Below are positions 55,385-64,000 of a DNA stretch of 64,000 nucleotides, in pieces. The position numbers were made by a program, and so were the translations under genes. Position 1 is the first letter of the stretch. Each line of letters begins with the position of its first letter. The stretch comes from Shigella phage SSP1. The DNA lies in the sequence record KY963424; one strand, written 5' to 3'. The notes beneath the pieces were generated by a model. The model saw only the letters and a program-made list of their open reading frames with translations, was not told the DNA's origin and did no database searches.

Positions 55385-55462
55385 GGTTCTCAAGCTCATA
55401 TGGTATGAGCACCCGGCTCATAACCGGAAGGTACGTAGGTTCGAATCCTCGGGGAGCCACCA
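55385..55462 (+). tRNA. tRNA with CAT anticodon (Met or Ile2)
   Basis: Acceptor GGTTCTC/GGGAGCC (with G-U pairs), D-stem GCTC/GAGC, anticodon loop CTCATAA, T-loop TTCGAAT with imperfect stem, CCA encoded. Confidence 0.6.
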
Positions 55463-55965: not shown

Positions 55966-56042
55966 GGGGGTGTAATCGAATTGGCATAGGTACTGGACTT
56001 AAAATTCAGGTTTTGTGGGTTCGAATCCCACCACCCCTACCA
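55966..56042 (+). tRNA. tRNA with anticodon TAA (Leu-type anticodon) but short variable arm
   Basis: Acceptor GGGGGTG/CACCCCT, anticodon arm CTGGA-CTTAAAA-TTCAG, T-arm GTGGG-TTCGAAT-CCCAC, CCA encoded; D-arm non-canonical. Confidence 0.55.
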
Positions 56043-56057
56043 AATTAAGGAAATAAG

Positions 56058-56225
56058 ATGTATAGACATCCACCTCCGCCAACACGTCGTTCTAGAGAAG
56101 TTATTCTCATGGAATTGACTAAAAACTTCAAGGCAACCCTTGAAGATAGAGATCTAGGCACGGATGAAGACATTGATTTTATTTGTAGACTATTAAAGAT
56201 GAAACTGGAGAAACAACATGGCTAA
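56058..56225 (+). CDS. Hypothetical small protein (55 aa)
   Basis: AAGGAAATAAGATG RBS right after tRNA; below ORF-track cut-off. Confidence 0.35.
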   Translation: MYRHPPPPTRRSREVILMELTKNFKATLEDRDLGTDEDIDFICRLLKMKLEKQHG

Positions 56226-56424
56226 TCCTGAAATTACCGCACAACGCTTCATGCTTAAAGGCATGATTGCTGAGGCAGGTATAACTCAAGAGGTTGCAGA
56301 TTTTCATAAGCAATTTCTTGATATTATAACTCTAGCTAAAGAGACTGGAGAAAAAGAGCACGGAGCAGCAATTATGGCTATATCTCTTATTAGTCTAGAC
56401 TTGGCTGAAGAATCTGGAGTTTAG
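56218..56424 (+). CDS. Hypothetical protein (68 aa)
   Basis: ORF overlapping previous stop. Confidence 0.4.
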   Translation: MANPEITAQRFMLKGMIAEAGITQEVADFHKQFLDIITLAKETGEKEHGAAIMAISLISLDLAEESGV

Positions 56425-56454
56425 CTCCTCCAAACAGAATTTTTAAAAATGTAC

Positions 56455-56484
56455 TTGCCTTTTGCTTTAAATTTCTGATATAAT
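56455..56484 (+). promoter_or_regulatory. T5-type early promoter (TTGCCT-18-TATAAT)
   Basis: AAAAATGTACTTGCCTTTTGCTTTAAATTTCTGATATAAT. Confidence 0.55.
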
Positions 56485-56514
56485 AGTTATATAAATTGAT
56501 GAAGGAGTTAACGA

Positions 56515-56790
56515 ATGCAAAATCGTGTTATAGCTGCTGGTATTGAAAGTGCAATCTGTAAATCCTGGGAAGGCTGGGAAGGTGAGATTGAATGGCTTTA
56601 TTTCTACGATGTAGAACTTCTGCCGGAAATTAAAGCTAAATGTGTTGAAGCTGGCATGGCTCCAGATGCAAAAGCTGATATTGATATTTCAATGTCTGAA
56701 CTTAAAGGTCGTGTAATCACTGTTAGTGATGAGGGTGAAGAAGTTTTTGAACTTCCGTTCTCCTTAACTGTCACTCCTAAGTTCGACTAG
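56515..56790 (+). CDS. Hypothetical acidic protein (91 aa)
   Basis: GAAGGAG RBS. Confidence 0.45.
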   Translation: MQNRVIAAGIESAICKSWEGWEGEIEWLYFYDVELLPEIKAKCVEAGMAPDAKADIDISMSELKGRVITVSDEGEEVFELPFSLTVTPKFD

Positions 56791-56826
56791 CTAATACAGC
56801 ATTGGGCAAGTTCTTTAAAATTTGAC

Positions 56827-56855
56827 TTGCTCAGTGCCTTAAAACTTGATATAAT
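56827..56855 (+). promoter_or_regulatory. T5-type early promoter (TTGCTC-17-TATAAT) upstream of tRNA-Tyr
   Basis: AAAATTTGACTTGCTCAGTGCCTTAAAACTTGATATAAT. Confidence 0.6.
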
Positions 56856-56979
56856 AGTTATCTAATTTGGAAACATATCTGAATGAGAAGTAATTAAGCG
56901 AGTTGCTTTGAGGGGTAAAGTCAGGAAATCCTGAAATATTCCACCTTGAGTTTAACCGACTTACTTTTCATTCAAATAT

Positions 56980-57060
56980 GAGGGATTGGCTCAGTGGCGA
57001 CGGCGCCTGGCTGTAGACCGGGTATATCACGCGGAGGTTCGAGTCCTCCATCCCTCACCA
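56980..57060 (+). tRNA. tRNA-Tyr(GTA)
   Basis: Acceptor GAGGGAT/ATCCCTC perfect, anticodon arm CCTGG-CTGTAGA-CCGGG, extended variable region, T-arm GGAGG-TTCGAGT-CCTCC, CCA encoded. Confidence 0.7.
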
Positions 57061-57078
57061 AATTACTAAGGAAGTAAT

Positions 57079-57624
57079 ATGCACAATAAGTTAATAAATG
57101 AGCTTCAAAAAAGACAAATAATAACAAAAACTAAGGAGTTTGATATAACTCCAGATTTAATAGTTGAATGTTCAAAAGTTTACTTAGAATTAAGTAACAC
57201 AAAAGCTAAGAAAGTCTCTTTAGGGGATCTTAGATATAACGTTAAACTATTGTGCTTATCATTAATTAAATTTAAACAGGAAAATAAACTTGCTATAAAA
57301 GAAGGCTTCATATATTTTATAGCAAATAAGGCCTGGCCCAATTATTTTAAGATTGGTATGTCAGCTAACCCAAAGAAACGCTTAGCGAACTATCAAACAT
57401 ATAGCCCCTTTAGGGATTATACAATGCTACACTGGTCTTTCTGGTTTGATAGAAAGGAAGGTGAAAAGTTTGTCCATAGTCTCTATCATGATAGAGATCA
57501 TGAATGGGTTAAGTTGCCTCAAAGAAAACTAAATAAAATATTTGAACAAATTAATAAACTTTCTGGTTTGGAACATTTAGTACAGAAAGTTAATAGAGAA
57601 ATAGTTAATGCACCTATCGTCTAA
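57079..57624 (+). CDS. T5orf172/GIY-YIG-like domain protein (mobile-element-type)
   Basis: GFIYFIANKAWPNYFKIGMSANPKKRLANYQTYSP resembles the T5orf172 (GIY-YIG-related) signature; AT-rich codon usage; stop overlaps tRNA-Glu 5' end. Confidence 0.55.
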   Translation: MHNKLINELQKRQIITKTKEFDITPDLIVECSKVYLELSNTKAKKVSLGDLRYNVKLLCLSLIKFKQENKLAIKEGFIYFIANKAWPNYFKIGMSANPKKRLANYQTYSPFRDYTMLHWSFWFDRKEGEKFVHSLYHDRDHEWVKLPQRKLNKIFEQINKLSGLEHLVQKVNREIVNAPIV

Positions 57625-57684
57625 TGGTTAGGACATCAGGATTTCAATCTGAGAATCGGAGTTCAATTCTCCGTGGGTGTACCA
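57610..57684 (+). tRNA. tRNA-Glu(TTC)
   Basis: Acceptor GCACCTA/TGGGTGT (two G-U), D-stem GTC/GAC, anticodon arm TCAGG-ATTTCAA-TCTGA, T-arm CGGAG-TTCAATT-CTCCG, CCA encoded. Confidence 0.75.
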
Positions 57685-57692
57685 GTTTCTGC

Positions 57693-57769
57693 ATTCCTAG
57701 AGTGTTACTGGACAGCATGTCGGTCTCCAAAACCGTACGGTCTAGGTTCGAGTCCTAGTAGGTTTGCCA
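57693..57769 (+). tRNA. tRNA-Trp(CCA)-like (acceptor stem with two U-U mismatches)
   Basis: Anticodon arm CGGT-CTCCAAA-ACCG, D-stem GTGT/GCAT, T-arm CTAGG-TTCGAGT-CCTAG, CCA encoded; acceptor ATTCCTA/TAGGTTT pairs only 5 of 7. Confidence 0.5.
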
Positions 57770-57775
57770 AAATTT

Positions 57776-57850
57776 GCACCTTTAGCTGAGATGGATTAGC
57801 GCTTGCCTGAAGAGCTTGAGAGGTTCGTTCGATACGAACAGGGTGCACCA
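57776..57850 (+). tRNA. tRNA-Phe(GAA)-like
   Basis: Acceptor GCACCTT/AGGGTGC, D-stem GCTG/TAGC, anticodon loop CTGAAGA (stem has two U-U), T-arm GTTCG-TTCGATA-CGAAC, CCA encoded. Confidence 0.6.
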
Positions 57851-57852
57851 AT

Positions 57853-58140
57853 TTGAATGAGCTGCTGATGCATCCTGAAAACTTCTTTATTTACTGCGCG
57901 GATAAGTCGCTGAAACGTAGAATTAACAAAGTCTATCATTATCGTGCTAGTCAACAGCCTTATGTATATGCTTTTGACGGTGATCACATTCCACTAGAAC
58001 AATTATCTTGTGATTACATGATATTGAAGAACTTTGACGAGACGAAGATCTCAAGCGTTCATAATCGACAGAATCCATTAACGTGGAAATATAAGAAGAA
58101 AAAGAAAGGCATCAAATTCTTAAAAAATGTAGTTGCTTAG
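57853..58140 (+). CDS. Hypothetical protein (95 aa)
   Basis: ORF following tRNA block; 3' end overlaps a promoter; weak evidence. Confidence 0.35.
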   Translation: MNELLMHPENFFIYCADKSLKRRINKVYHYRASQQPYVYAFDGDHIPLEQLSCDYMILKNFDETKISSVHNRQNPLTWKYKKKKKGIKFLKNVVA

Positions 58141-58161
58141 TTTCCAAAAGTTCTGTATAAT
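58133..58161 (+). promoter_or_regulatory. T5-type early promoter (TTGCTT-17-TATAAT)
   Basis: AAAAATGTAGTTGCTTAGTTTCCAAAAGTTCTGTATAAT + ACATAAATTGAACTGGAG. Confidence 0.6.
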
Positions 58162-58190
58162 AATTACATAAATTGAACTGGAGAAGCAAC

Positions 58191-58415
58191 ATGACAGAAC
58201 AAGAATTGAATGAACGTAAGCTGGTAATGCTTCGCTTACTAAATATTTTCTCTGGTATGGACGGTGGAATTGACTTTGTTCATCTACGTTCTTTCGTAGA
58301 AGAAGCCGAAGGCGAATCTATCACTAAAATCCTTAAACACATGGGATTACTTTTAGATGCTGCTAATGTGGCTACTGAATATAAACTAGAAGATCTACCG
58401 AAGCGTGTTAAATGA
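58191..58415 (+). CDS. Hypothetical protein (74 aa)
   Basis: Start MTEQEL with GGAGAAGCAACATG RBS. Confidence 0.45.
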   Translation: MTEQELNERKLVMLRLLNIFSGMDGGIDFVHLRSFVEEAEGESITKILKHMGLLLDAANVATEYKLEDLPKRVK

Positions 58416-58603
58416 GAAAGTTAGTTAAATTTAAGTGTTGTGGTTCTGAACATATTTTCACACATCTTCGTGAATTTAAAATGTGTGATTGTGGTAAATC
58501 AGGCTATGACTCAGGAGATGGGTTCTACACCCGTACTCTAGGGAACTTCAATGATCTAGAATTTGAAGATCTCGAAAAACAAGATAAATCGACCGTTGGC
58601 TGA
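58412..58603 (+). CDS. Small Cys-containing protein (63 aa)
   Basis: Translationally coupled; CCGSEH...CDCGKSG; stop overlaps tRNA-Cys 5' end. Confidence 0.4.
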   Translation: MRKLVKFKCCGSEHIFTHLREFKMCDCGKSGYDSGDGFYTRTLGNFNDLEFEDLEKQDKSTVG

Positions 58604-58665
58604 ATGGCTTAGGCGAAGGATTGCAAATCCTTTTTATGTGAGTTCAAATCTCATGCGGTCGTCCA
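58590..58665 (+). tRNA. tRNA-Cys(GCA)
   Basis: Acceptor CGACCGT/GCGGTCG, anticodon arm AAGGA-TTGCAAA-TCCTT, T-arm GTGAG-TTCAAAT-CTCAT, CCA encoded. Confidence 0.75.
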
Positions 58666-58667
58666 AT

Positions 58668-58808
58668 TTGCTGAAAGAATTGTTAAATCAATTCAGGCAC
58701 GCGTAGGAACACTGTCTCCGCAATTGAAAGATGAGGCACGGTTTGGAGAGGTATGCCGCTACACGCTACGGTGCTAACTCCGTCTAGGTGAAAATCCTAG
58801 TCAGCAAT
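58668..58808 (+). ncRNA. 141-nt tRNA-like structured RNA (perfect 7-bp terminal stem, T-arm-positioned hairpin, long insertion)
   Basis: 5' TTGCTGA pairs perfectly with 3' TCAGCAA; hairpin CTAGG-TGAAAAT-CCTAG immediately precedes the 3' strand; no ORF. Confidence 0.35.
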
Positions 58809-58817
58809 ATAAATTTA

Positions 58818-58900
58818 GGGTCGTTAGCCAAGCGGTTTGGCGGTGGACTGTTAATCCATGTCGAAAGACAACGTAGGTTCGAATCCTACACGGCCCGCCA
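58818..58900 (+). tRNA. tRNA with Asn-type anticodon arm (GTT) but extended 13-nt variable arm
   Basis: Acceptor GGGTCGT/ACGGCCC, D-stem GCC/GGC, anticodon arm GTGGA-CTGTTAA-TCCAT (close to the E. coli tRNA-Asn arm as recalled), variable GTCGAAAGACAAC, T-arm GTAGG-TTCGAAT-CCTAC, CCA encoded. Confidence 0.6.
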
Positions 58901-59002
58901 AATTCTGTGTAGAGTTAAGTAAACCGGTAGCCAACCAGCTATCATTGCTGATATCGAATTCAGCCACAGATACCATTTTCATTAATAACTGAGGAAACAA
59001 GC

Positions 59003-59195: not shown

Positions 59196-59777
59196 ATGCA
59201 CGGAATATTTTTACCTATTCCTATGTTTGATGAATATCTGGTAAGTCTAGATGGGTTAGTGTTCAGTATTAAATCAAATAAAATACTAACCCCAATAACT
59301 AGTAATTATGGATATGTATCTGTACGCCTACATCATAACGGTAGGCAAAGAAATACTGGTATACATAGAATCATAGCATGTGCCTTTAAAAGGTTACCTA
59401 GTTTAGACTCTGTACTAGAGGTTGATCATATTGATACAGATATCACCTATTGGGGATTAAATAATCTACAAGTCCTTACTAAAGAACAGCATTTAGAAAA
59501 AACCCTGAAAGATAAGGGCTATAATAAACTAATACATAATAAACAGTGTAGTATATGTGGTGAACCTATATCACTGAAAGCAGATAAGTGTCAAAAATGC
59601 TCATCACATAAACTGAAAGATCCATCTATTACTAAAGAAATAATAGAATCTACTGTAAAAGAGTTAGGATGGTCTGGTGCTGGAAGAAGATTATCTTATT
59701 CTGATAACGGGTTAAGAAAACGTTATAAAGCATTAGGTGGTGATCCAAAAGAATTAAAAAAGTTAAAGGTACTATAG
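59196..59777 (+). CDS. HNH homing endonuclease (NUMOD4-like N-terminus + HNH)
   Basis: IHRIIACAF...EVDHIDTDITYWGLNNLQVLTKEQHLEKT HNH core; paralog of 62914..63474 with shared C-terminal SGAGRRLSYSDNGLRKRYKALGG; stop overlaps tRNA-Asp. Confidence 0.7.
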   Translation: MHGIFLPIPMFDEYLVSLDGLVFSIKSNKILTPITSNYGYVSVRLHHNGRQRNTGIHRIIACAFKRLPSLDSVLEVDHIDTDITYWGLNNLQVLTKEQHLEKTLKDKGYNKLIHNKQCSICGEPISLKADKCQKCSSHKLKDPSITKEIIESTVKELGWSGAGRRLSYSDNGLRKRYKALGGDPKELKKLKVL

Positions 59778-60329: not shown

Positions 60330-60338
60330 CAATCAAAC

Positions 60339-60459
60339 ATTCTAGCGTGGTTGATGGAGAAACCAGCTTGGCGAGGGCAGAAGCTCGTTCGATTCGAGTG
60401 AAAGAATGGTTCTCGTAAGTCCGCACAAGTGATAACAGGTTCGAGTCCTGTCTAGAATG
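60339..60459 (+). ncRNA. 121-nt tRNA-like RNA (perfect acceptor stem + canonical T-arm, oversized body)
   Basis: 5' ATTCTAG pairs with 3' CTAGAAT; T-arm ACAGG-TTCGAGT-CCTGT; second internal T-arm-like hairpin GCTCG-TTCGATT-CGAGT; no CCA encoded. Confidence 0.4.
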
Positions 60460-60469
60460 ACACTATAAA

Positions 60470-60592
60470 GTTTACTTATTATGTAGGTTCCGATAGATCG
60501 GCGGGTCTATTCTGGCATTTAAGAGAGGTCTCGCAAACTTCTTTGTCAGCCGTGGGGTTCATAGCCTCCAGGTGGCCTACACAATAAGTAAA
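60470..60592 (+). ncRNA. Structured RNA candidate closed by 14-bp terminal stem
   Basis: ACTTATTATGTAGG (60474-60487) pairs with CCTACACAATAAGT (60576-60589) with one mismatch; internal palindromes; no ORF. Confidence 0.35.
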
Positions 60593-60958: not shown

Positions 60959-61036
60959 TGCGGGTTAGATCTCTGGTAGAGATCACTAGTCTCATAAGCT
61001 AGAAAGAGGTAGGTTCGATTCCTGCACCCGCTTCCA
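60959..61036 (+). tRNA. tRNA with CAT anticodon (second Met/Ile2-type), unpaired 1-72
   Basis: D-stem GATC/GATC, anticodon arm CTAGT-CTCATAA-GCTAG, T-arm GTAGG-TTCGATT-CCTGC, CCA encoded; acceptor TGCGGGT/ACCCGCT with T-T at 1-72. Confidence 0.6.
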
Positions 61037-61225: not shown

Positions 61226-61304
61226 AGATCGCTAGCTCAATAGGTTTAGTAGCATCCGACTTTTAATCGGAAGGTTCTGGGTTCGAGTCCCAGGCGATCT
61301 ACCA
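61226..61304 (+). tRNA. tRNA-Lys(TTT)
   Basis: Acceptor AGATCGC/GCGATCT perfect, anticodon arm TCCGA-CTTTTAA-TCGGA, T-arm CTGGG-TTCGAGT-CCCAG, CCA encoded. Confidence 0.8.
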
Positions 61305-61351: not shown

Positions 61352-61589
61352 ATTTATATAAATTGATGGGGAGAAATCCTCATCATAGTTCACTAAGGTA
61401 TTAGCTCGACCTAGGACTGGCTGCCAAAAAGCACGATCCCTACGATTCGGGAGAAGTTCTAGATTAGTCCACTAGATTCAGTGGCAACTGAGTAGTGTAT
61501 CGGGTTTGCGAGATGACGCGGTTCCTTCCGCTTGAAGCGAAGGTGCTGTAGTTACGCCGAGCTAATAGCCTTAGTAAACTAAAGAATTT

Positions 61590-61668: not shown

Positions 61669-61753
61669 GGGGCTATGCTGGAACTGGTAGACAATACGGC
61701 CTTAGATTCCGTAGCTTAAATGCGTGGGAGTTCGAGTCTCCCTAGCCCCACCA
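61669..61753 (+). tRNA. tRNA-Leu(TAG), type II
   Basis: Acceptor GGGGCTA/TAGCCCC perfect, D-loop with GGTAGAC, anticodon loop CTTAGAT, 13-nt variable arm, T-arm GGGAG-TTCGAGT-CTCCC, CCA encoded. Confidence 0.75.
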
Positions 61754-61865: not shown

Positions 61866-61956
61866 GGAAGAGCAAATCGAATTGGCGACGAAAACCGCTT
61901 GGAAAGTGGCTGACTGGTAAAACGGCTTGAGAGTTCAAATCTCTCCTCTTCCGCCA
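61866..61956 (+). tRNA. tRNA-Ser(GGA), type II
   Basis: Acceptor GGAAGAG/CTCTTCC perfect, anticodon loop TTGGAAA, long variable arm, T-arm GAGAG-TTCAAAT-CTCTC, CCA encoded; D region irregular. Confidence 0.6.
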
Positions 61957-61978: not shown

Positions 61979-62073
61979 TCCAACGGCTGGCGCTGGACTC
62001 CGACTTGAAATCGGTTGATCGTAGTGATACGGTGTAAGGGTTCGATCCCCTTACCTACCTCCAAATCTTGAAG
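61979..62073 (+). tRNA. tRNA-Ser(TGA), type II
   Basis: Acceptor GGTAGGT/ACCTACC perfect, anticodon arm CCGA-CTTGAAA-TCGG, long variable arm, T-arm AAGGG-TTCGATC-CCCTT, CCA encoded. Confidence 0.7.
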
Positions 62074-62439
62074 TATGCCGGAATCGGTAGACGGGGCTGC
62101 CTAAAAGGTTTATAGGGAACATCCACTCCCTGCAATATACCTCATAAAGCGGCTGAGATAAATGGTCTATCTCGTGAAGGTTCAAGTCCTTCTACTTCTT
62201 GATATATCAATGGCTCAAAGTGTAACGGTGCTATTTGATGCGCTTGGAAAGACTTCCCCGACATGCGTTCGGGAGTAAGCTACTAAGGCTAGAGTAGAAG
62301 AGTTTCGGAGAGCCGCCACAATTGAAAATTCGTACTCGTCTTGAGCTGCGTGCAATAGGAGATAACTTGATTAGTATTCTAGAACATGCTAATTGAGGAA
62401 GGTTTCGCTAACCCTGCGAGTTTTCAATTGTGGCTATAT
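62074..62439 (+). ncRNA. ORF-less segment with degenerate tRNA-like pieces and a 14-bp long-range stem
   Basis: T-arm GAAGG-TTCAAGT-CCTTC without matching acceptor; ...GAGAGCC-G-CCA 3'-end-like motif at 62308-62318; GCCACAATTGAAAA (62314-62327) is the exact reverse complement of TTTTCAATTGTGGC (62431-62444). Confidence 0.3.
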
Positions 62440-62913: not shown

Positions 62914-63474
62914 ATGAAAATAATTCCTGAATTTCCAAACTATAGTATAACTGAGGATGGTAAGGTATGGTCTAAAAATATTAATGCATTTTTATCTCCA
63001 TATGTTAATAACTCAGGATACCCATGCTATAAACTCCACAAGAATGGTATTCAGTACACACAGTCTATCCATAGATTACTTGCTAGAGTGTATAAGGGTT
63101 TACCTTCACTAGACTCTGAACTAGAGGTAGATCATAAAGATACCGATCCTTCTAATTATAGTTTAGATAATATACAAGTTCTAAGTAAAGAAGAACACTT
63201 GAAGAAAACCCTTCAAGATAGGAAACAGTTGCCTTATAATACTATTTGCCCACTTTGCTCAGGCTACAAAGATCCTGGTGCTTCTAAGTGTAAGAAATGT
63301 TCTTCTTTATCACAAGTAAAAGATAAATCTGTTACCGTAGAACAGATCGAATACTGGGTTAAAAACTATTCTTGGGTAAGAGCTGGAAAGGAATTAGGTT
63401 ATTCAGATAGTGGATTACGTAAACGTTATAAAGCTCTTACTGGTAAAGACCCTAAACAAATAAAATGCGGTTAG
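62914..63474 (+). CDS. HNH homing endonuclease (NUMOD4-like N-terminus + HNH)
   Basis: EFPNYSITEDGKVWS; IHRLLARVY...EVDHKDTDPSNYSLDNIQVLSKEEHLKKT; paralog of 59196..59777; stop overlaps tRNA-Gly. Confidence 0.7.
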   Translation: MKIIPEFPNYSITEDGKVWSKNINAFLSPYVNNSGYPCYKLHKNGIQYTQSIHRLLARVYKGLPSLDSELEVDHKDTDPSNYSLDNIQVLSKEEHLKKTLQDRKQLPYNTICPLCSGYKDPGASKCKKCSSLSQVKDKSVTVEQIEYWVKNYSWVRAGKELGYSDSGLRKRYKALTGKDPKQIKCG

Positions 63475-63941: not shown

Positions 63942-64000
63942 GCTGGGTTGGCAGAATGGTTGAATGCACCTGATTTGTAATCAGGAGGAGTAATCCCGTT
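63942..64000 (+). tRNA. tRNA, 3'-truncated by window edge (anticodon loop TTTGTAA, Thr-type TGT)
   Basis: D-arm GCA-GAATGGTTGAA-TGC and anticodon arm CCTGA-TTTGTAA-TCAGG visible; T-arm lies beyond window. Confidence 0.4.

What the first reader, a model, noticed from the sequence alone, without database searches (positions are those of the whole stretch)
55966..58900. Several tRNAs deviate from canonical architecture
(i) 55966..56042 has a Leu-type anticodon loop CTTAAAA (anticodon TAA) but only a 5-nt variable arm, i.e. a type I body. (ii) 58818..58900 has an anticodon arm close to the E. coli tRNA-Asn arm as I recall it (anticodon GTT), but a 3-bp D-stem and a 13-nt variable arm, i.e. a type II body. 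(iii) The Trp-type tRNA (57693..57769) has two U-U mismatches in the acceptor stem. (iv) There are two CAT-anticodon tRNAs; the one at 60959..61036 has an unpaired 1-72. Such oddities could alter recognition by host tRNA-targeting nucleases or by synthetases, or some may be pseudogenes.
Basis: partly seen in the sequence, partly recalled or inferred. Interest (0 to 1): 0.5.

Follow-up and report, generated by a model that had tools for sequence, protein, structure and literature searches.

The report
Working phage tRNAs with unusual shapes
The oddly shaped tRNAs in this T5-like phage are real, conserved genes already shown to work in E. coli; two of the shapes (a leucine tRNA without its extra arm, an asparagine tRNA with one) turn out to be common in phages, perhaps to dodge host tRNA-cutting defences.

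Summary
All four observations are in the sequence. The window is the tRNA region of a T5-like phage. The tRNAs are 98.7-100% identical to genes annotated in Salmonella phage 5 (AJ604531). That record notes that the Leu(UAA), Asn and Trp tRNAs become amber suppressors once given a CUA anticodon, so they are not pseudogenes.

(i) The UAA tRNA is a tRNA-Leu that lost only the variable arm. It keeps A73, A14, A15-U48, G18G19, A20a and G1.U72. About 30% of phage tRNA-Leu have this form, whereas Ser and Tyr almost never lose the arm.

(ii) The GUU tRNA carries a 3-bp GAAA-capped hairpin in the variable region. That stem covaries across T5-like, T4-like, phAPEC8-like and phiKZ-like phages. I found 153 unique examples, 92% with G73, about 8-10% of phage tRNA-Asn.

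(iii) The U2.U71/U3.U70 tandem in tRNA-Trp is invariant while the flanking pairs covary.

(iv) The unpaired 1-72 marks the initiator tRNA; the other CAU tRNA is annotated tRNA-Ile2.

Host synthetases most likely still charge these tRNAs, because the elements they read are retained. Escape from host tRNA nucleases such as PARIS AriB is plausible but untested. T5 itself carries type I Asn and Thr alleles with altered anticodon stems.

The parts
55966..56042 (+). tRNA-Leu(UAA) with a type I body: 5-nt variable loop, 3-bp D stem, 11-nt D loop GAAUUGGCAUA, G1.U72, A73, CCA encoded
   Evidence: ARAGORN; Rfam 57.4 bits; 100% identical to AJ604531 tRNAL2, noted as an 'effective amber suppressor'; family covariation
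58818..58900 (+). tRNA-Asn(GUU) with a type II body; G1-C72, G73; anticodon arm as in E. coli asnT except pair 28-42
   Evidence: ARAGORN; Rfam 59.0 bits; 100% identical to AJ604531 tRNAN; the minimum-energy fold is a cloverleaf with an extra hairpin; covariation
58860..58872 (+). Variable arm of the tRNA-Asn: 3-bp stem GUC/GAC capped by a GAAA tetraloop, then 3 unpaired nucleotides (AAC)
   Evidence: Sequence; all 4 stem pairs show changes on both sides across 14 homologues; GNRA-capped hairpins number 67 against 1.0 in shuffles
57693..57769 (+). tRNA-Trp(CCA) with A1-U72, tandem U2.U71/U3.U70 (bases 57694-57695 and 57763-57764), U27.U43, G73
   Evidence: ARAGORN; Rfam 36.3 bits; 100% identical to AJ604531 tRNAW; mismatches invariant while neighbouring pairs covary
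60959..61036 (+). Initiator tRNA-fMet(CAU): U1.U72 mismatch, G2-C71, C3-G70, A11-U24, U73; only G30-C40 of the three usual G-C pairs in the anticodon stem
   Evidence: ARAGORN; Rfam 43.8 bits; 98.7% identical to the annotated 'initiator tRNA-fMet' of phage 5 and T5; U1.U72 conserved in four Demerecviridae genera
55385..55462 (+). The second CAU tRNA, annotated tRNA-Ile2; its T stem has two mismatches
   Evidence: Rfam 40.3 bits; missed by ARAGORN; 100% identical to AJ604531 tRNAI2; the T5 copy is noted as convertible to an amber suppressor
63942..64000 (+). First 59 nt of a type II tRNA-Thr(UGU), cut by the end of the window. The complete 87-nt gene has a GGA-GUAA-UCC variable arm
   Evidence: Rfam partial hit; 100% identical over 59 nt to AJ604531 tRNAT; fold of the complete gene
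61669..61753 (+). Canonical type II tRNA-Leu(UAG), 85 nt, useful as an internal comparison. In phage 5 the same slot holds a 77-nt type I tRNA-Leu(UAG)
   Evidence: ARAGORN; comparison of alleles

Best explanation
These are working phage tRNAs that keep what the host synthetases read and differ from host tRNAs elsewhere.

Shown here or in database annotation:
- The genes belong to the early tRNA cluster of a T5-like phage.
- They match curated genes whose CUA-anticodon derivatives suppress amber codons in vivo, according to the GenBank notes.
- Each odd feature is conserved while the surrounding helices show compensatory change.

Inferred, one tRNA at a time:
- tRNA-Leu(UAA) is charged by host LeuRS. 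It retains A73, A14, A15-U48, G18G19, A20a, G1.U72 and the tRNA-Leu type D arm. E. coli LeuRS does not use the variable arm.
- tRNA-Asn(GUU) is charged by host AsnRS, whose published identity set is the anticodon plus G73. The inserted GNRA-capped mini-helix is tolerated.
- tRNA-Trp is charged through its CCA anticodon, G73 and A1-U72.
- The U1.U72 tRNA is the phage initiator.
- The other CAU tRNA is tRNA-Ile2.

Most likely reason for the deviations (inference, not tested): a tRNA body unlike the host's escapes host defence nucleases that recognise more than the anticodon loop, while charging is preserved. Losing or gaining a variable arm, reshaping the D loop and weakening the acceptor stem would be an alternative route to the anticodon-stem substitutions seen in T5's own alleles.
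For: Identity and function:
- The window tRNAs are 100% identical to AJ604531 tRNAL2, tRNAN, tRNAW and tRNAI2, and 98.7% identical to its tRNAfM.

tRNA-Leu:
- In 24 type I tRNA-Leu, 99.8% of cells pair and 20 of 20 pairs show compensatory change. U8, A14, A15, G18, G19, A20a, U48 and A73 are invariant.
- Of 73 unique type I Leu, 71 have A73 and 69 have U48.
- E. coli leuZ has the same D-loop layout and G1.U72.
- Published identity rules are in PMC9976931.
- Leu loses the arm in 62 of 193 phage tRNAs, but Ser in 1 of 91 and Tyr in 2 of 36. This is what is expected if only LeuRS can do without the arm.

tRNA-Asn:
- All 4 variable-stem pairs show double changes.
- Of 153 unique type II Asn, 140 have G73. 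The 1-72 pair is U-A in about 70%, as in type I Asn and unlike Ser and Tyr.
- Other long-armed tRNAs keep the discriminator typical of their isotype: Cys U73 in 7 of 7, Trp G73 in 5 of 5, His C73 in 3 of 4.

tRNA-Trp:
-.

Defence link:
[quoted passage not shown] - T5's type I Asn and Thr alleles have G39. The window-type type II alleles keep the host-like U36-A-A-U39-C40.
Against: - No charging, modification or nuclease data exist for these particular alleles.
- The PARIS rescue experiments used T5's type I alleles, not these.
- The link between allele type and anticodon-stem sequence rests on few, related lineages.
- E. coli LeuRS failed to charge the type I tRNA-Leu(CAA) of Streptomyces coelicolor (PMC6614811). 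That tRNA has C48, not U48.
- tRNA-Trp lacks G2-C71 and G3-C70, which are minor TrpRS elements.
- The minimum-energy folds of the unmodified Leu and Trp sequences are not cloverleaves.
- The suppressor notes do not say which amino acid is inserted.
- Class switching could be neutral (see rivals).
Confidence: 0.6

Rival explanations
1. Neutral drift within loose constraints. Phage tRNA genes evolve fast and are shuffled as cassettes. Arms are lost or gained wherever the cognate synthetase does not care. Once an arm is present, its pairing is kept only to avoid misfolding. The shapes have no adaptive role.
For: - The arm is lost only in Leu, not in Ser or Tyr, which needs nothing more than relaxed constraint.
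- Type I and type II alleles of Asn, Thr and Leu(UAG) replace each other at the same loci among close relatives.
- Homing-endonuclease-like ORFs abut the tRNA genes.
Against: - The GNRA cap is strongly enriched: 67 observed against 1.0 expected, maximum 4 in shuffles.
- The arm geometry is uniform: a 3-4 bp stem followed by 3-4 unpaired nucleotides.
- The U.U tandem in tRNA-Trp is invariant across three Demerecviridae genera and three unrelated viral contigs while neighbouring pairs change.
- All three points suggest selection on specific features rather than mere tolerance.
Confidence: 0.3
2. The type II tRNA-Asn has a serine-like body and is charged, at least in part, by SerRS. It would then insert Ser at AAC and AAU codons, as allo-tRNAs and nematode nev-tRNAs carry Ser or Leu to other codons.
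For: - The window allele has G73, G1-C72, G2-C71, C11-G24, a variable arm, and a D loop resembling that of tRNA-Ser.
- The database notes say its CUA version suppresses amber codons, whereas T5's type I tRNA-Asn(CUA) does not. The same contrast holds for type II versus type I tRNA-Thr. AsnRS needs the anticodon, so some anticodon-independent enzyme may charge the type II body.
Against: - The arm has 3 bp and 3 unpaired 3' nucleotides, which is tRNA-Tyr-like geometry. Phage and E. coli tRNA-Ser arms have 4-7 bp and 1 unpaired nucleotide.
- Across 153 type II Asn, U1-A72 dominates, whereas tRNA-Ser is G1-C72.
- In large tRNA arrays the type II gene is often the only Asn tRNA.
- Amber suppressors are often mischarged by GlnRS or LysRS, so suppression alone does not imply SerRS.
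Confidence: 0.07
3. Some of these are decaying pseudogenes, or artefacts of mis-registered folds.
For: - Some automated annotations label a few tRNAs of this region 'tRNA-OTHER' or 'tRNA-Pseudo'.
- ARAGORN misses the tRNA-Ile2 and a tRNA-Ser(GGA).
- The Trp and Leu cloverleaves are thermodynamically weak.
Against: - Two independent tRNA finders agree on the folds.
- The genes are 98.7-100% identical to curated genes with suppressor notes.
- The Trp sequence is at least 95% identical in 277 phage records.
- Covariation supports every helix.
Confidence: 0.03

Closest known systems
tRNA gene cluster of phages T5, BF23 and Salmonella phage 5 (GenBank AY543070, AJ604531)
   Same: Same locus, gene order and promoters. 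The Leu2, Asn, Trp and Ile2 genes are identical to those of phage 5, and the fMet gene differs by 1 nt.
   Different: T5 itself has no tRNA-Leu(UAA). It carries a type I tRNA-Asn (78 nt), a type I tRNA-Thr (75 nt) and a different 71-nt tRNA-Trp. Results obtained with T5 alleles therefore do not transfer automatically to this window.
Type I tRNA-Leu of Streptomyces coelicolor (PMC6614811) and of animal mitochondria
   Same: A tRNA-Leu with a 5-nt variable loop that coexists with type II tRNA-Leu and a single LeuRS.
   Different: The phage form keeps the E. coli-type identity set: A73, A15-U48, G18G19, A20a. The Streptomyces tRNA has C48, does not rely on A73, and was not charged by E. coli LeuRS. 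The phage form makes up about 30% of phage tRNA-Leu in my sample. I found no paper stating this.
Long-armed tRNAs with anticodons other than Leu, Ser or Tyr: nematode nev-tRNAs (PMC3333845) and bacterial allo-tRNAs (PMC5389517)
   Same: A long variable arm on a tRNA whose anticodon belongs to a type I family.
   Different: Those tRNAs carry Leu or Ser identity and have 8/4 or 9/3 acceptor branches, or are hardly used in translation. The phage tRNA-Asn has a normal 7/5 branch, Asn-type G73 (and usually U1-A72), and a short Tyr-like arm. It is therefore most likely a genuine Asn acceptor.
Phage tRNAs that escape host tRNA nucleases: T5 tRNA-Lys, Thr and Asn versus PARIS AriB (PMC11464382, PMC12409363); T5 tRNA-Tyr versus retron Eco7 (PMC11555353); the anticodon-loop mutation hypothesis (PMC10264068)
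   Same: The same phage group and the same isoacceptors (Asn, Thr, Lys). The shared idea is that phage tRNAs differ from host tRNAs where nucleases read.
   Different: The published escapes are base substitutions in the anticodon stem-loop and at U16. The window alleles keep a host-like anticodon stem-loop and differ in the body instead: variable arm, D loop, acceptor stem. The PARIS papers and the eLife paper never use the word 'variable'.
Bacterial initiator tRNA-fMet
   Same: 1-72 mismatch, G2-C71, C3-G70, A11-U24, CAU anticodon.
   Different: U.U instead of C.A at 1-72, U73 instead of A73, and only the middle one (G30-C40) of the three G-C pairs in the anticodon stem.

Membership tests
Bacterial tRNA-Leu (substrate of E. 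coli-type LeuRS) | Discriminator A73 | tested here: met
   A73 in the window tRNA and in 71 of 73 phage type I tRNA-Leu
Bacterial tRNA-Leu (substrate of E. coli-type LeuRS) | Core elements A14, A15-U48, G18G19, A20a, in a 3-bp D stem with an 11-nt D loop | tested here: met
   D loop GAAUUGGCAUA against GAAUCGGUAGA in E. coli leuZ. These positions are invariant in 24 type I Leu. The identity set is taken from PMC9976931 and PMC6614811
Bacterial tRNA-Leu (substrate of E. coli-type LeuRS) | Long variable arm (type II body) | tested here: not met
   5-nt loop GUUUU. This is a structural hallmark but is reported not to be an identity element for E. coli LeuRS
Bacterial tRNA-Leu (substrate of E. coli-type LeuRS) | Accepts leucine | not testable with these tools
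   Only indirect evidence: the database note calls it an 'effective amber suppressor' after an anticodon swap
Bacterial tRNA-Asn (substrate of AsnRS) | Anticodon GUU and discriminator G73 | tested here: met
   G73 in 140 of 153 type II Asn. The identity set is from PMC9976931
Bacterial tRNA-Asn (substrate of AsnRS) | Type I body (4-5 nt variable loop) | tested here: not met
   13-nt variable region containing a hairpin
Bacterial tRNA-Asn (substrate of AsnRS) | Accepts asparagine | not testable with these tools
   No data exist for this allele. The PARIS rescue experiments used T5's type I allele
tRNA-Ser-like substrate of SerRS | Long variable arm with Ser geometry (4-7 bp stem, about 1 unpaired 3' nucleotide) | tested here: not met
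   3 bp and 3 unpaired nucleotides. Ser arms in the same data set have mostly 4-7 bp and 1 unpaired nucleotide; E. coli serU has 6 bp and 1
tRNA-Ser-like substrate of SerRS | G73, G1-C72, G2-C71, C11-G24 | tested here: met
   Present in the window allele. Across the whole type II Asn family, however, 1-72 is U-A in about 70%
Bacterial initiator tRNA | Unpaired 1-72 together with G2-C71, C3-G70 and A11-U24 | tested here: met
   U1.U72, acceptor positions 2-6 GCGGG, D stem GAUC/GAUC. U1.U72 is conserved in T5, phage 5, bobsandoy, Proteus phage 2 and DU_PP_V
Bacterial initiator tRNA | Three consecutive G-C pairs, 29-41 to 31-39 | tested here: not met
   A29-U41, G30-C40, U31.G39
Bacterial initiator tRNA | Formylated Met-tRNA used for initiation | not testable with these tools
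   Annotated as the initiator in T5 and phage 5. A 1975 paper on T5-coded Met and fMet tRNAs is listed in the references of PMC4810235, but the paper itself is not held
Bacterial tRNA-Trp (substrate of TrpRS) | Anticodon CCA, G73, A1-U72 | tested here: met
   conserved in the family
Bacterial tRNA-Trp (substrate of TrpRS) | G2-C71 and G3-C70 (minor elements) | tested here: not met
   U.U at both positions, and non-standard pairs in all 6 family members
tRNA-Ile2 (lysidine-modified CAU) | CAU anticodon together with the determinants read by TilS | not tested
   Assignment rests on the AJ604531 and AY543070 annotation. Here I confirmed only the CAU anticodon and the cloverleaf

The most novel reading that the evidence does not exclude
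Phages may routinely remodel the parts of a tRNA that synthetases ignore, so that their tRNAs become invisible to host tRNA-cutting immune nucleases while still being charged. The remodelling would include adding a short GNRA-capped variable arm to tRNA-Asn, tRNA-Thr and other tRNAs that read A-starting codons, deleting the arm of tRNA-Leu, and placing a U.U tandem in the tRNA-Trp acceptor stem. In this window, the variable arms of tRNA-Asn and tRNA-Thr sit next to the AriB cleavage site (positions 40/41). They would be the structural counterpart of the G39 substitutions found in T5's type I alleles.
Probability: 0.3. Interest if true: 0.75.

Novelty: new variant of a known kind. Interest (0 to 1): 0.5.

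Why it matters
Textbooks say bacterial type II tRNAs are Leu, Ser and Tyr only. These E. coli and Salmonella phage tRNAs break that rule in both directions. According to the GenBank suppressor notes, they still work in E. coli.

- They are natural experiments showing which tRNA parts LeuRS, AsnRS and TrpRS can do without.
- They are ready-made probes for how immune nucleases such as PARIS AriB recognise the tRNA body.
- They are candidate scaffolds for engineered tRNAs.

There is also a practical warning. T5 and its relatives carry different alleles of "the same" tRNA, so results obtained with T5 alleles should not be assumed to hold for other T5-like phages.

Tried and rejected
- BLAST of the Asn and Leu tRNAs against 5,426 E. 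coli genomes found no significant match. The best was tRNA-Lys at 71% identity, E about 1. They are therefore not recent copies of host genes.
- I tried to trace the origin of the window tRNA-Asn body by nearest neighbour, with the anticodon arm and variable arm removed. The result was unresolved: Lys, Ser, Phe, Trp and Asn all score 0.72-0.76. I therefore dropped my early idea that it is a tRNA-Tyr or tRNA-Ser with a changed anticodon. Across the whole family the bodies are closest to type I Asn, in 81 of 155 cases.
- I first took the PARIS rescue experiments as direct evidence of function for this tRNA-Asn. I withdrew that on finding that T5's allele is a different, type I gene.
- Single-sequence folding does not recover the cloverleaf for the Leu and Trp tRNAs. 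Support for those two folds comes from covariation instead.
- Literature searches for a description of long-armed tRNA-Asn or arm-less tRNA-Leu in phages found none. The library lacks most subscription and Russian-language papers, so earlier remarks by the group that annotated these records cannot be excluded.
- The 1975 PNAS paper on T5 fMet and Met tRNAs is not held.
It gives examples, not counts.

Full report
**What the region is**

The window's 55-64 kb stretch is the early tRNA cluster of a T5-like phage (family Demerecviridae). A search with 8.4 kb of it matched 599 phage records, nearly all T5-like Salmonella, Escherichia and Klebsiella phages. ARAGORN finds 18 tRNAs. Rfam adds one that ARAGORN misses and a partial one at the window's end.

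The most useful comparison is GenBank AJ604531, the "Bacteriophage 5 tRNA gene region". It is annotated feature by feature, with promoters, stable RNAs and notes on suppressor tests. A local BLAST against it gives these identities:

| Window tRNA | AJ604531 gene | Identity |
|---|---|---|
| 55966-56042 | tRNAL2 (Leu, UUA) | 100% |
| 58818-58900 | tRNAN (Asn) | 100% |
| 57693-57769 | tRNAW (Trp) | 100% |
| 55385-55462 | tRNAI2 (Ile, CAU) | 100% |
| 60959-61036 | tRNAfM | 98.7% |

**Checking the observation**

All four sub-observations hold.

- (i) The UAA tRNA is 77 nt, with a 5-nt variable loop, a 3-bp D stem, an 11-nt D loop, G1.U72 and A73.
- (ii) The GUU tRNA is 83 nt.
  - Its 13-nt variable region at 58860-58872 reads GUC-GAAA-GAC followed by AAC.
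  - Its minimum-energy fold is a cloverleaf with a fifth hairpin.
  - The "3-bp D stem" is the conserved core; this lineage can add A13-U22.
- (iii) The Trp tRNA has A1-U72, U2.U71 and U3.U70, plus a U27.U43 mismatch.
- (iv) The CAU tRNA at 60959 has U1.U72. The second CAU tRNA lies at 55385-55462.

**Are they pseudogenes?**

No. The AJ604531 notes state that replacing the anticodon with CUA:
- converts tRNA-Leu2 into an "effective amber suppressor";
- converts tRNA-Asn and tRNA-Trp into amber suppressors.

These are notes in a database record, not experiments I could read. They do not say which amino acid is inserted. They do imply transcription, processing, charging by some enzyme, and use on the ribosome.

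Comparative evidence agrees, as the next sections show.

**The arm-less tRNA-Leu**

Apart from the missing arm, this is a textbook E. coli-type tRNA-Leu.
- Its D arm (3-bp stem, loop GAAUUGGCAUA) has the same length and layout as E. coli leuZ (GAAUCGGUAGA). It also shares leuZ's G1.U72 and A73.
- The published E. coli LeuRS identity set is A73, A14, A15-U48, G18G19 and A20a. The variable arm is dispensable (PMC9976931 and the introduction of PMC6614811).

The same architecture is present in other Demerecviridae, with different stem sequences: Proteus phage 2, Klebsiella phage phiKp_27 and Pectobacterium phage DU_PP_V.

In viral contigs from IMG/VR I collected 73 unique type I tRNA-Leu covering all Leu anticodons:
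- 71 have A73;
- 69 have U48;
- 62 have the 3-bp D stem.

Twenty-four of them have exactly the window's 77-nt layout and align without gaps:
- 99.8% of cells pair;
- 20 of 20 pairs show compensatory change;
- the invariant bases are U8, A14, A15, G18, G19, A20a, A35, U48 and A73, together with T-loop bases and the CCA end.

In a less biased sample of 1,343 unique phage-contig tRNAs the arm is missing as follows:

| Isotype | Lacking the arm | Share |
|---|---|---|
| Leu | 62 of 193 | 32% |
| Ser | 1 of 91 | 1% |
| Tyr | 2 of 36 | 6% |

That asymmetry is what the identity rules predict, because SerRS and TyrRS use the arm and LeuRS does not.

One caution: E. coli LeuRS did not charge the type I tRNA-Leu(CAA) of Streptomyces coelicolor. 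That tRNA has C48 and uses different rules.

**The long-armed tRNA-Asn**

Homologues of 80-87 nt occur in several unrelated phage groups:
- other Demerecviridae: bobsandoy, Proteus phage 2;
- T4-like phages: CBH8, CC31, KP1;
- Marfavirus;
- phAPEC8-like phages;
- a phiKZ-like Pseudomonas phage that also carries a normal 76-nt tRNA-Asn.

The arm's stem changes by paired substitutions: GUC/GAC, GUUC/GAAC, GUCA/UGAC, AUCC/GGAU, GAGC/GCUC. In a 14-sequence alignment:
- all 4 stem pairs show changes on both sides;
- 98.8% of all cloverleaf cells pair;
- none of 500 shuffles reaches the observed values for four of the five measures (2 of 500 for the fifth).

A pattern scan found at least 120 IMG/VR contigs and many bacterial contigs with such genes. 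Among the bacterial hits that contain a type II tRNA-Asn, most lie in dense tRNA arrays; many other hits contained no tRNA at all. Across 153 unique sequences:
- 86% contain a hairpin of 3 bp or more, against 57% of shuffles;
- 67 are GNRA-capped, against 1.0 expected and a maximum of 4;
- 140 have G73;
- the 1-72 pair is U-A in about 70% and G-C in about 25%, the same as in type I Asn and unlike Ser and Tyr.

With the anticodon loop and variable arm removed, 81 of 155 bodies are closest to type I Asn.

Long-armed versions of other isotypes also keep their own discriminators: Cys U73 in 7 of 7, Trp G73 in 5 of 5, His C73 in 3 of 4, and mostly A73 in Lys, Ile and Met. These are therefore ordinary isoacceptors with an inserted mini-helix, not Ser or Leu tRNAs with foreign anticodons.

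The arm's geometry (3-4 bp, then 3-4 unpaired nucleotides) matches tRNA-Tyr. It does not match tRNA-Ser (mostly 4-7 bp, 1 unpaired nucleotide) or tRNA-Leu (1 unpaired nucleotide).

Scans that did not select on arm length suggest that about 8-10% of phage-contig tRNA-Asn are type II.

**An important correction about T5**

T5 itself (AY543070) does not carry these alleles.
- Its tRNA-Asn is a 78-nt type I gene and its tRNA-Thr a 75-nt type I gene. The notes say the CUA versions of both are not suppressors.
- Phage 5 and this window have the 83-nt type II tRNA-Asn and an 87-nt type II tRNA-Thr. The Thr gene is cut by the end of the window.
- The flanks are shared, but the tRNA itself is replaced like a cassette.
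- Three homing-endonuclease-like ORFs end inside the neighbouring tRNA genes.

**Link to host defence**

[quoted passage not shown] The site lies in a U36-A-A-U39-C40 context. T5's Lys, Thr and Asn tRNAs together rescue cells (PMC12409363). The authors' model places one AriB subunit on C40-A41 and the other on D-loop U16-U17. They infer further contacts elsewhere in the tRNA.

The two sets of alleles differ in a consistent way:
- T5's type I Asn and Thr alleles have G39. So do the type I alleles of phiKp_27 and DU_PP_V.
- The type II alleles keep the host-like UAAUC. The T4-like and phAPEC8-like type II tRNA-Asn have an anticodon stem-loop identical to that of E. coli asnT.

This fits two alternative escape routes: change the cleavage site, or change the body next to it. 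The variable arm begins three nucleotides after the cut. The window tRNA-Asn also has C16 instead of U16.

This is an inference from few, related lineages. No experiment has used these alleles.

**The tRNA-Trp mismatches**

The same A1-U72, U2.U71, U3.U70, G73 arrangement occurs in:
- Tequintavirus (the window sequence is at least 95% identical in 277 records);
- Sugarlandvirus and Hongcheonvirus;
- three unrelated IMG/VR contigs, one of which has C.U at 3-70.

In the 6-sequence alignment, pairs 1-72 and 4-69 to 7-66 all show double changes and always pair. Positions 2-71 and 3-70 are never standard pairs.

The tandem is therefore a selected feature of a phage tRNA-Trp lineage. Its purpose is unknown. 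It removes two minor TrpRS elements and makes the acceptor end weak; the single-sequence fold is no better than shuffled sequence (z = +0.3).

**The CAU tRNAs**

An unpaired 1-72 is the hallmark of bacterial initiators. This tRNA also has G2-C71, C3-G70 and A11-U24. It is annotated as the initiator in T5 and phage 5. U1.U72 is conserved in four genera.

- U73;
- only one (G30-C40) of the three G-C pairs in the anticodon stem.

The other CAU tRNA is annotated tRNA-Ile2. A third, the elongator Met tRNA, lies beyond the window.

**Verdict**

The tRNAs are known, curated and functional. "Pseudogene" is rejected, and item (iv) is ordinary.

Items (i) to (iii) are conserved architectural variants that keep the synthetase identity sets.

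This analysis adds that the arm-less tRNA-Leu and the long-armed tRNA-Asn are widespread in phage tRNA arrays. I found no paper saying so, though the library is incomplete.

The adaptive reason is open. Nuclease escape is my preferred reading, and neutral drift is the main rival.

Noticed in passing
window 61866-61956 (+): A tRNA-Ser(GGA) that is 100% identical to the annotated tRNAS2 of phage 5. Neither ARAGORN nor the Rfam scan at E<=1 finds it. T5's copy is noted as not convertible to a suppressor.
   Followed up: partly
window 58903-58975, 60338-60462, 60483-60583, 61399-61570, 62067-62211, 62212-62318, 62323-62428 (+): These stretches match the annotated RNA3, RNA2, RNAIV, RNA2H, RNA1, RNAI and RNAIII of phage 5 at 93-99% identity. 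The record calls them 'tRNA-like' or 'stable RNA with unknown functions'. RNA3 follows tRNA-Asn directly and ends in ACCA.
   Followed up: no
window 56980-57060 (+): tRNA-Tyr(GUA) of only 81 nt, with a 9-nt unpaired variable region and a 6-bp anticodon stem, intermediate between type I and type II. An annotation of a related phage under this region lists a 'tRNA-Pseudo-GTA' (not checked to be this gene). Phage 5 and T5 carry different 91-nt and 88-nt alleles at this locus.
   Followed up: partly
window 57079-57624, 59196-59777, 62914-63474 (+): Three homing-endonuclease-like ORFs: T5orf172/MUG113 domain; NUMOD4 plus a weak HNH_3 match; HNH_3. Each ends inside or right at the start of the next tRNA gene (Glu, Asp, Gly). 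This fits the cassette-like exchange of tRNA alleles among T5-like phages.
   Followed up: partly
window 61226-61304 (+): tRNA-Lys(UUU) of 79 nt with an enlarged 11-13-nt D loop. Its anticodon stem keeps U39-C40 and has G41, unlike T5's PARIS-resistant allele (A39, C41).
   Followed up: no
loci L168, L169, L171, L173 (Solirubrobacterales MAGs); L147, L152, L177, L155: Lone type II tRNA-Asn(GUU) genes of 83-89 nt in bacterial and archaeal contigs, with no surrounding tRNA array. Some cellular lineages may use a long-armed tRNA-Asn natively.
   Followed up: no
IMG/VR loci L005-L124 and L254-L475: Long variable arms also appear on Ile(UAU), Ile(GAU), Met/Ile2(CAU), Thr(UGU), Lys, Cys, Trp, Pro and His tRNAs in phage arrays, each with its isotype-typical discriminator. 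In the first sample they are more frequent on tRNAs that read A- or U-starting codons (about 12%) than on those reading C- or G-starting codons (about 3-5%).
   Followed up: partly
locus L001 (phage 5) versus window 61669-61753: The tRNA-Leu(UAG) slot is polymorphic among close relatives: 85-nt type II in the window and T5, 77-nt type I in phage 5 and Proteus phage 2, and an 81-nt form with a C-UUCG-G mini-hairpin in bobsandoy.
   Followed up: partly
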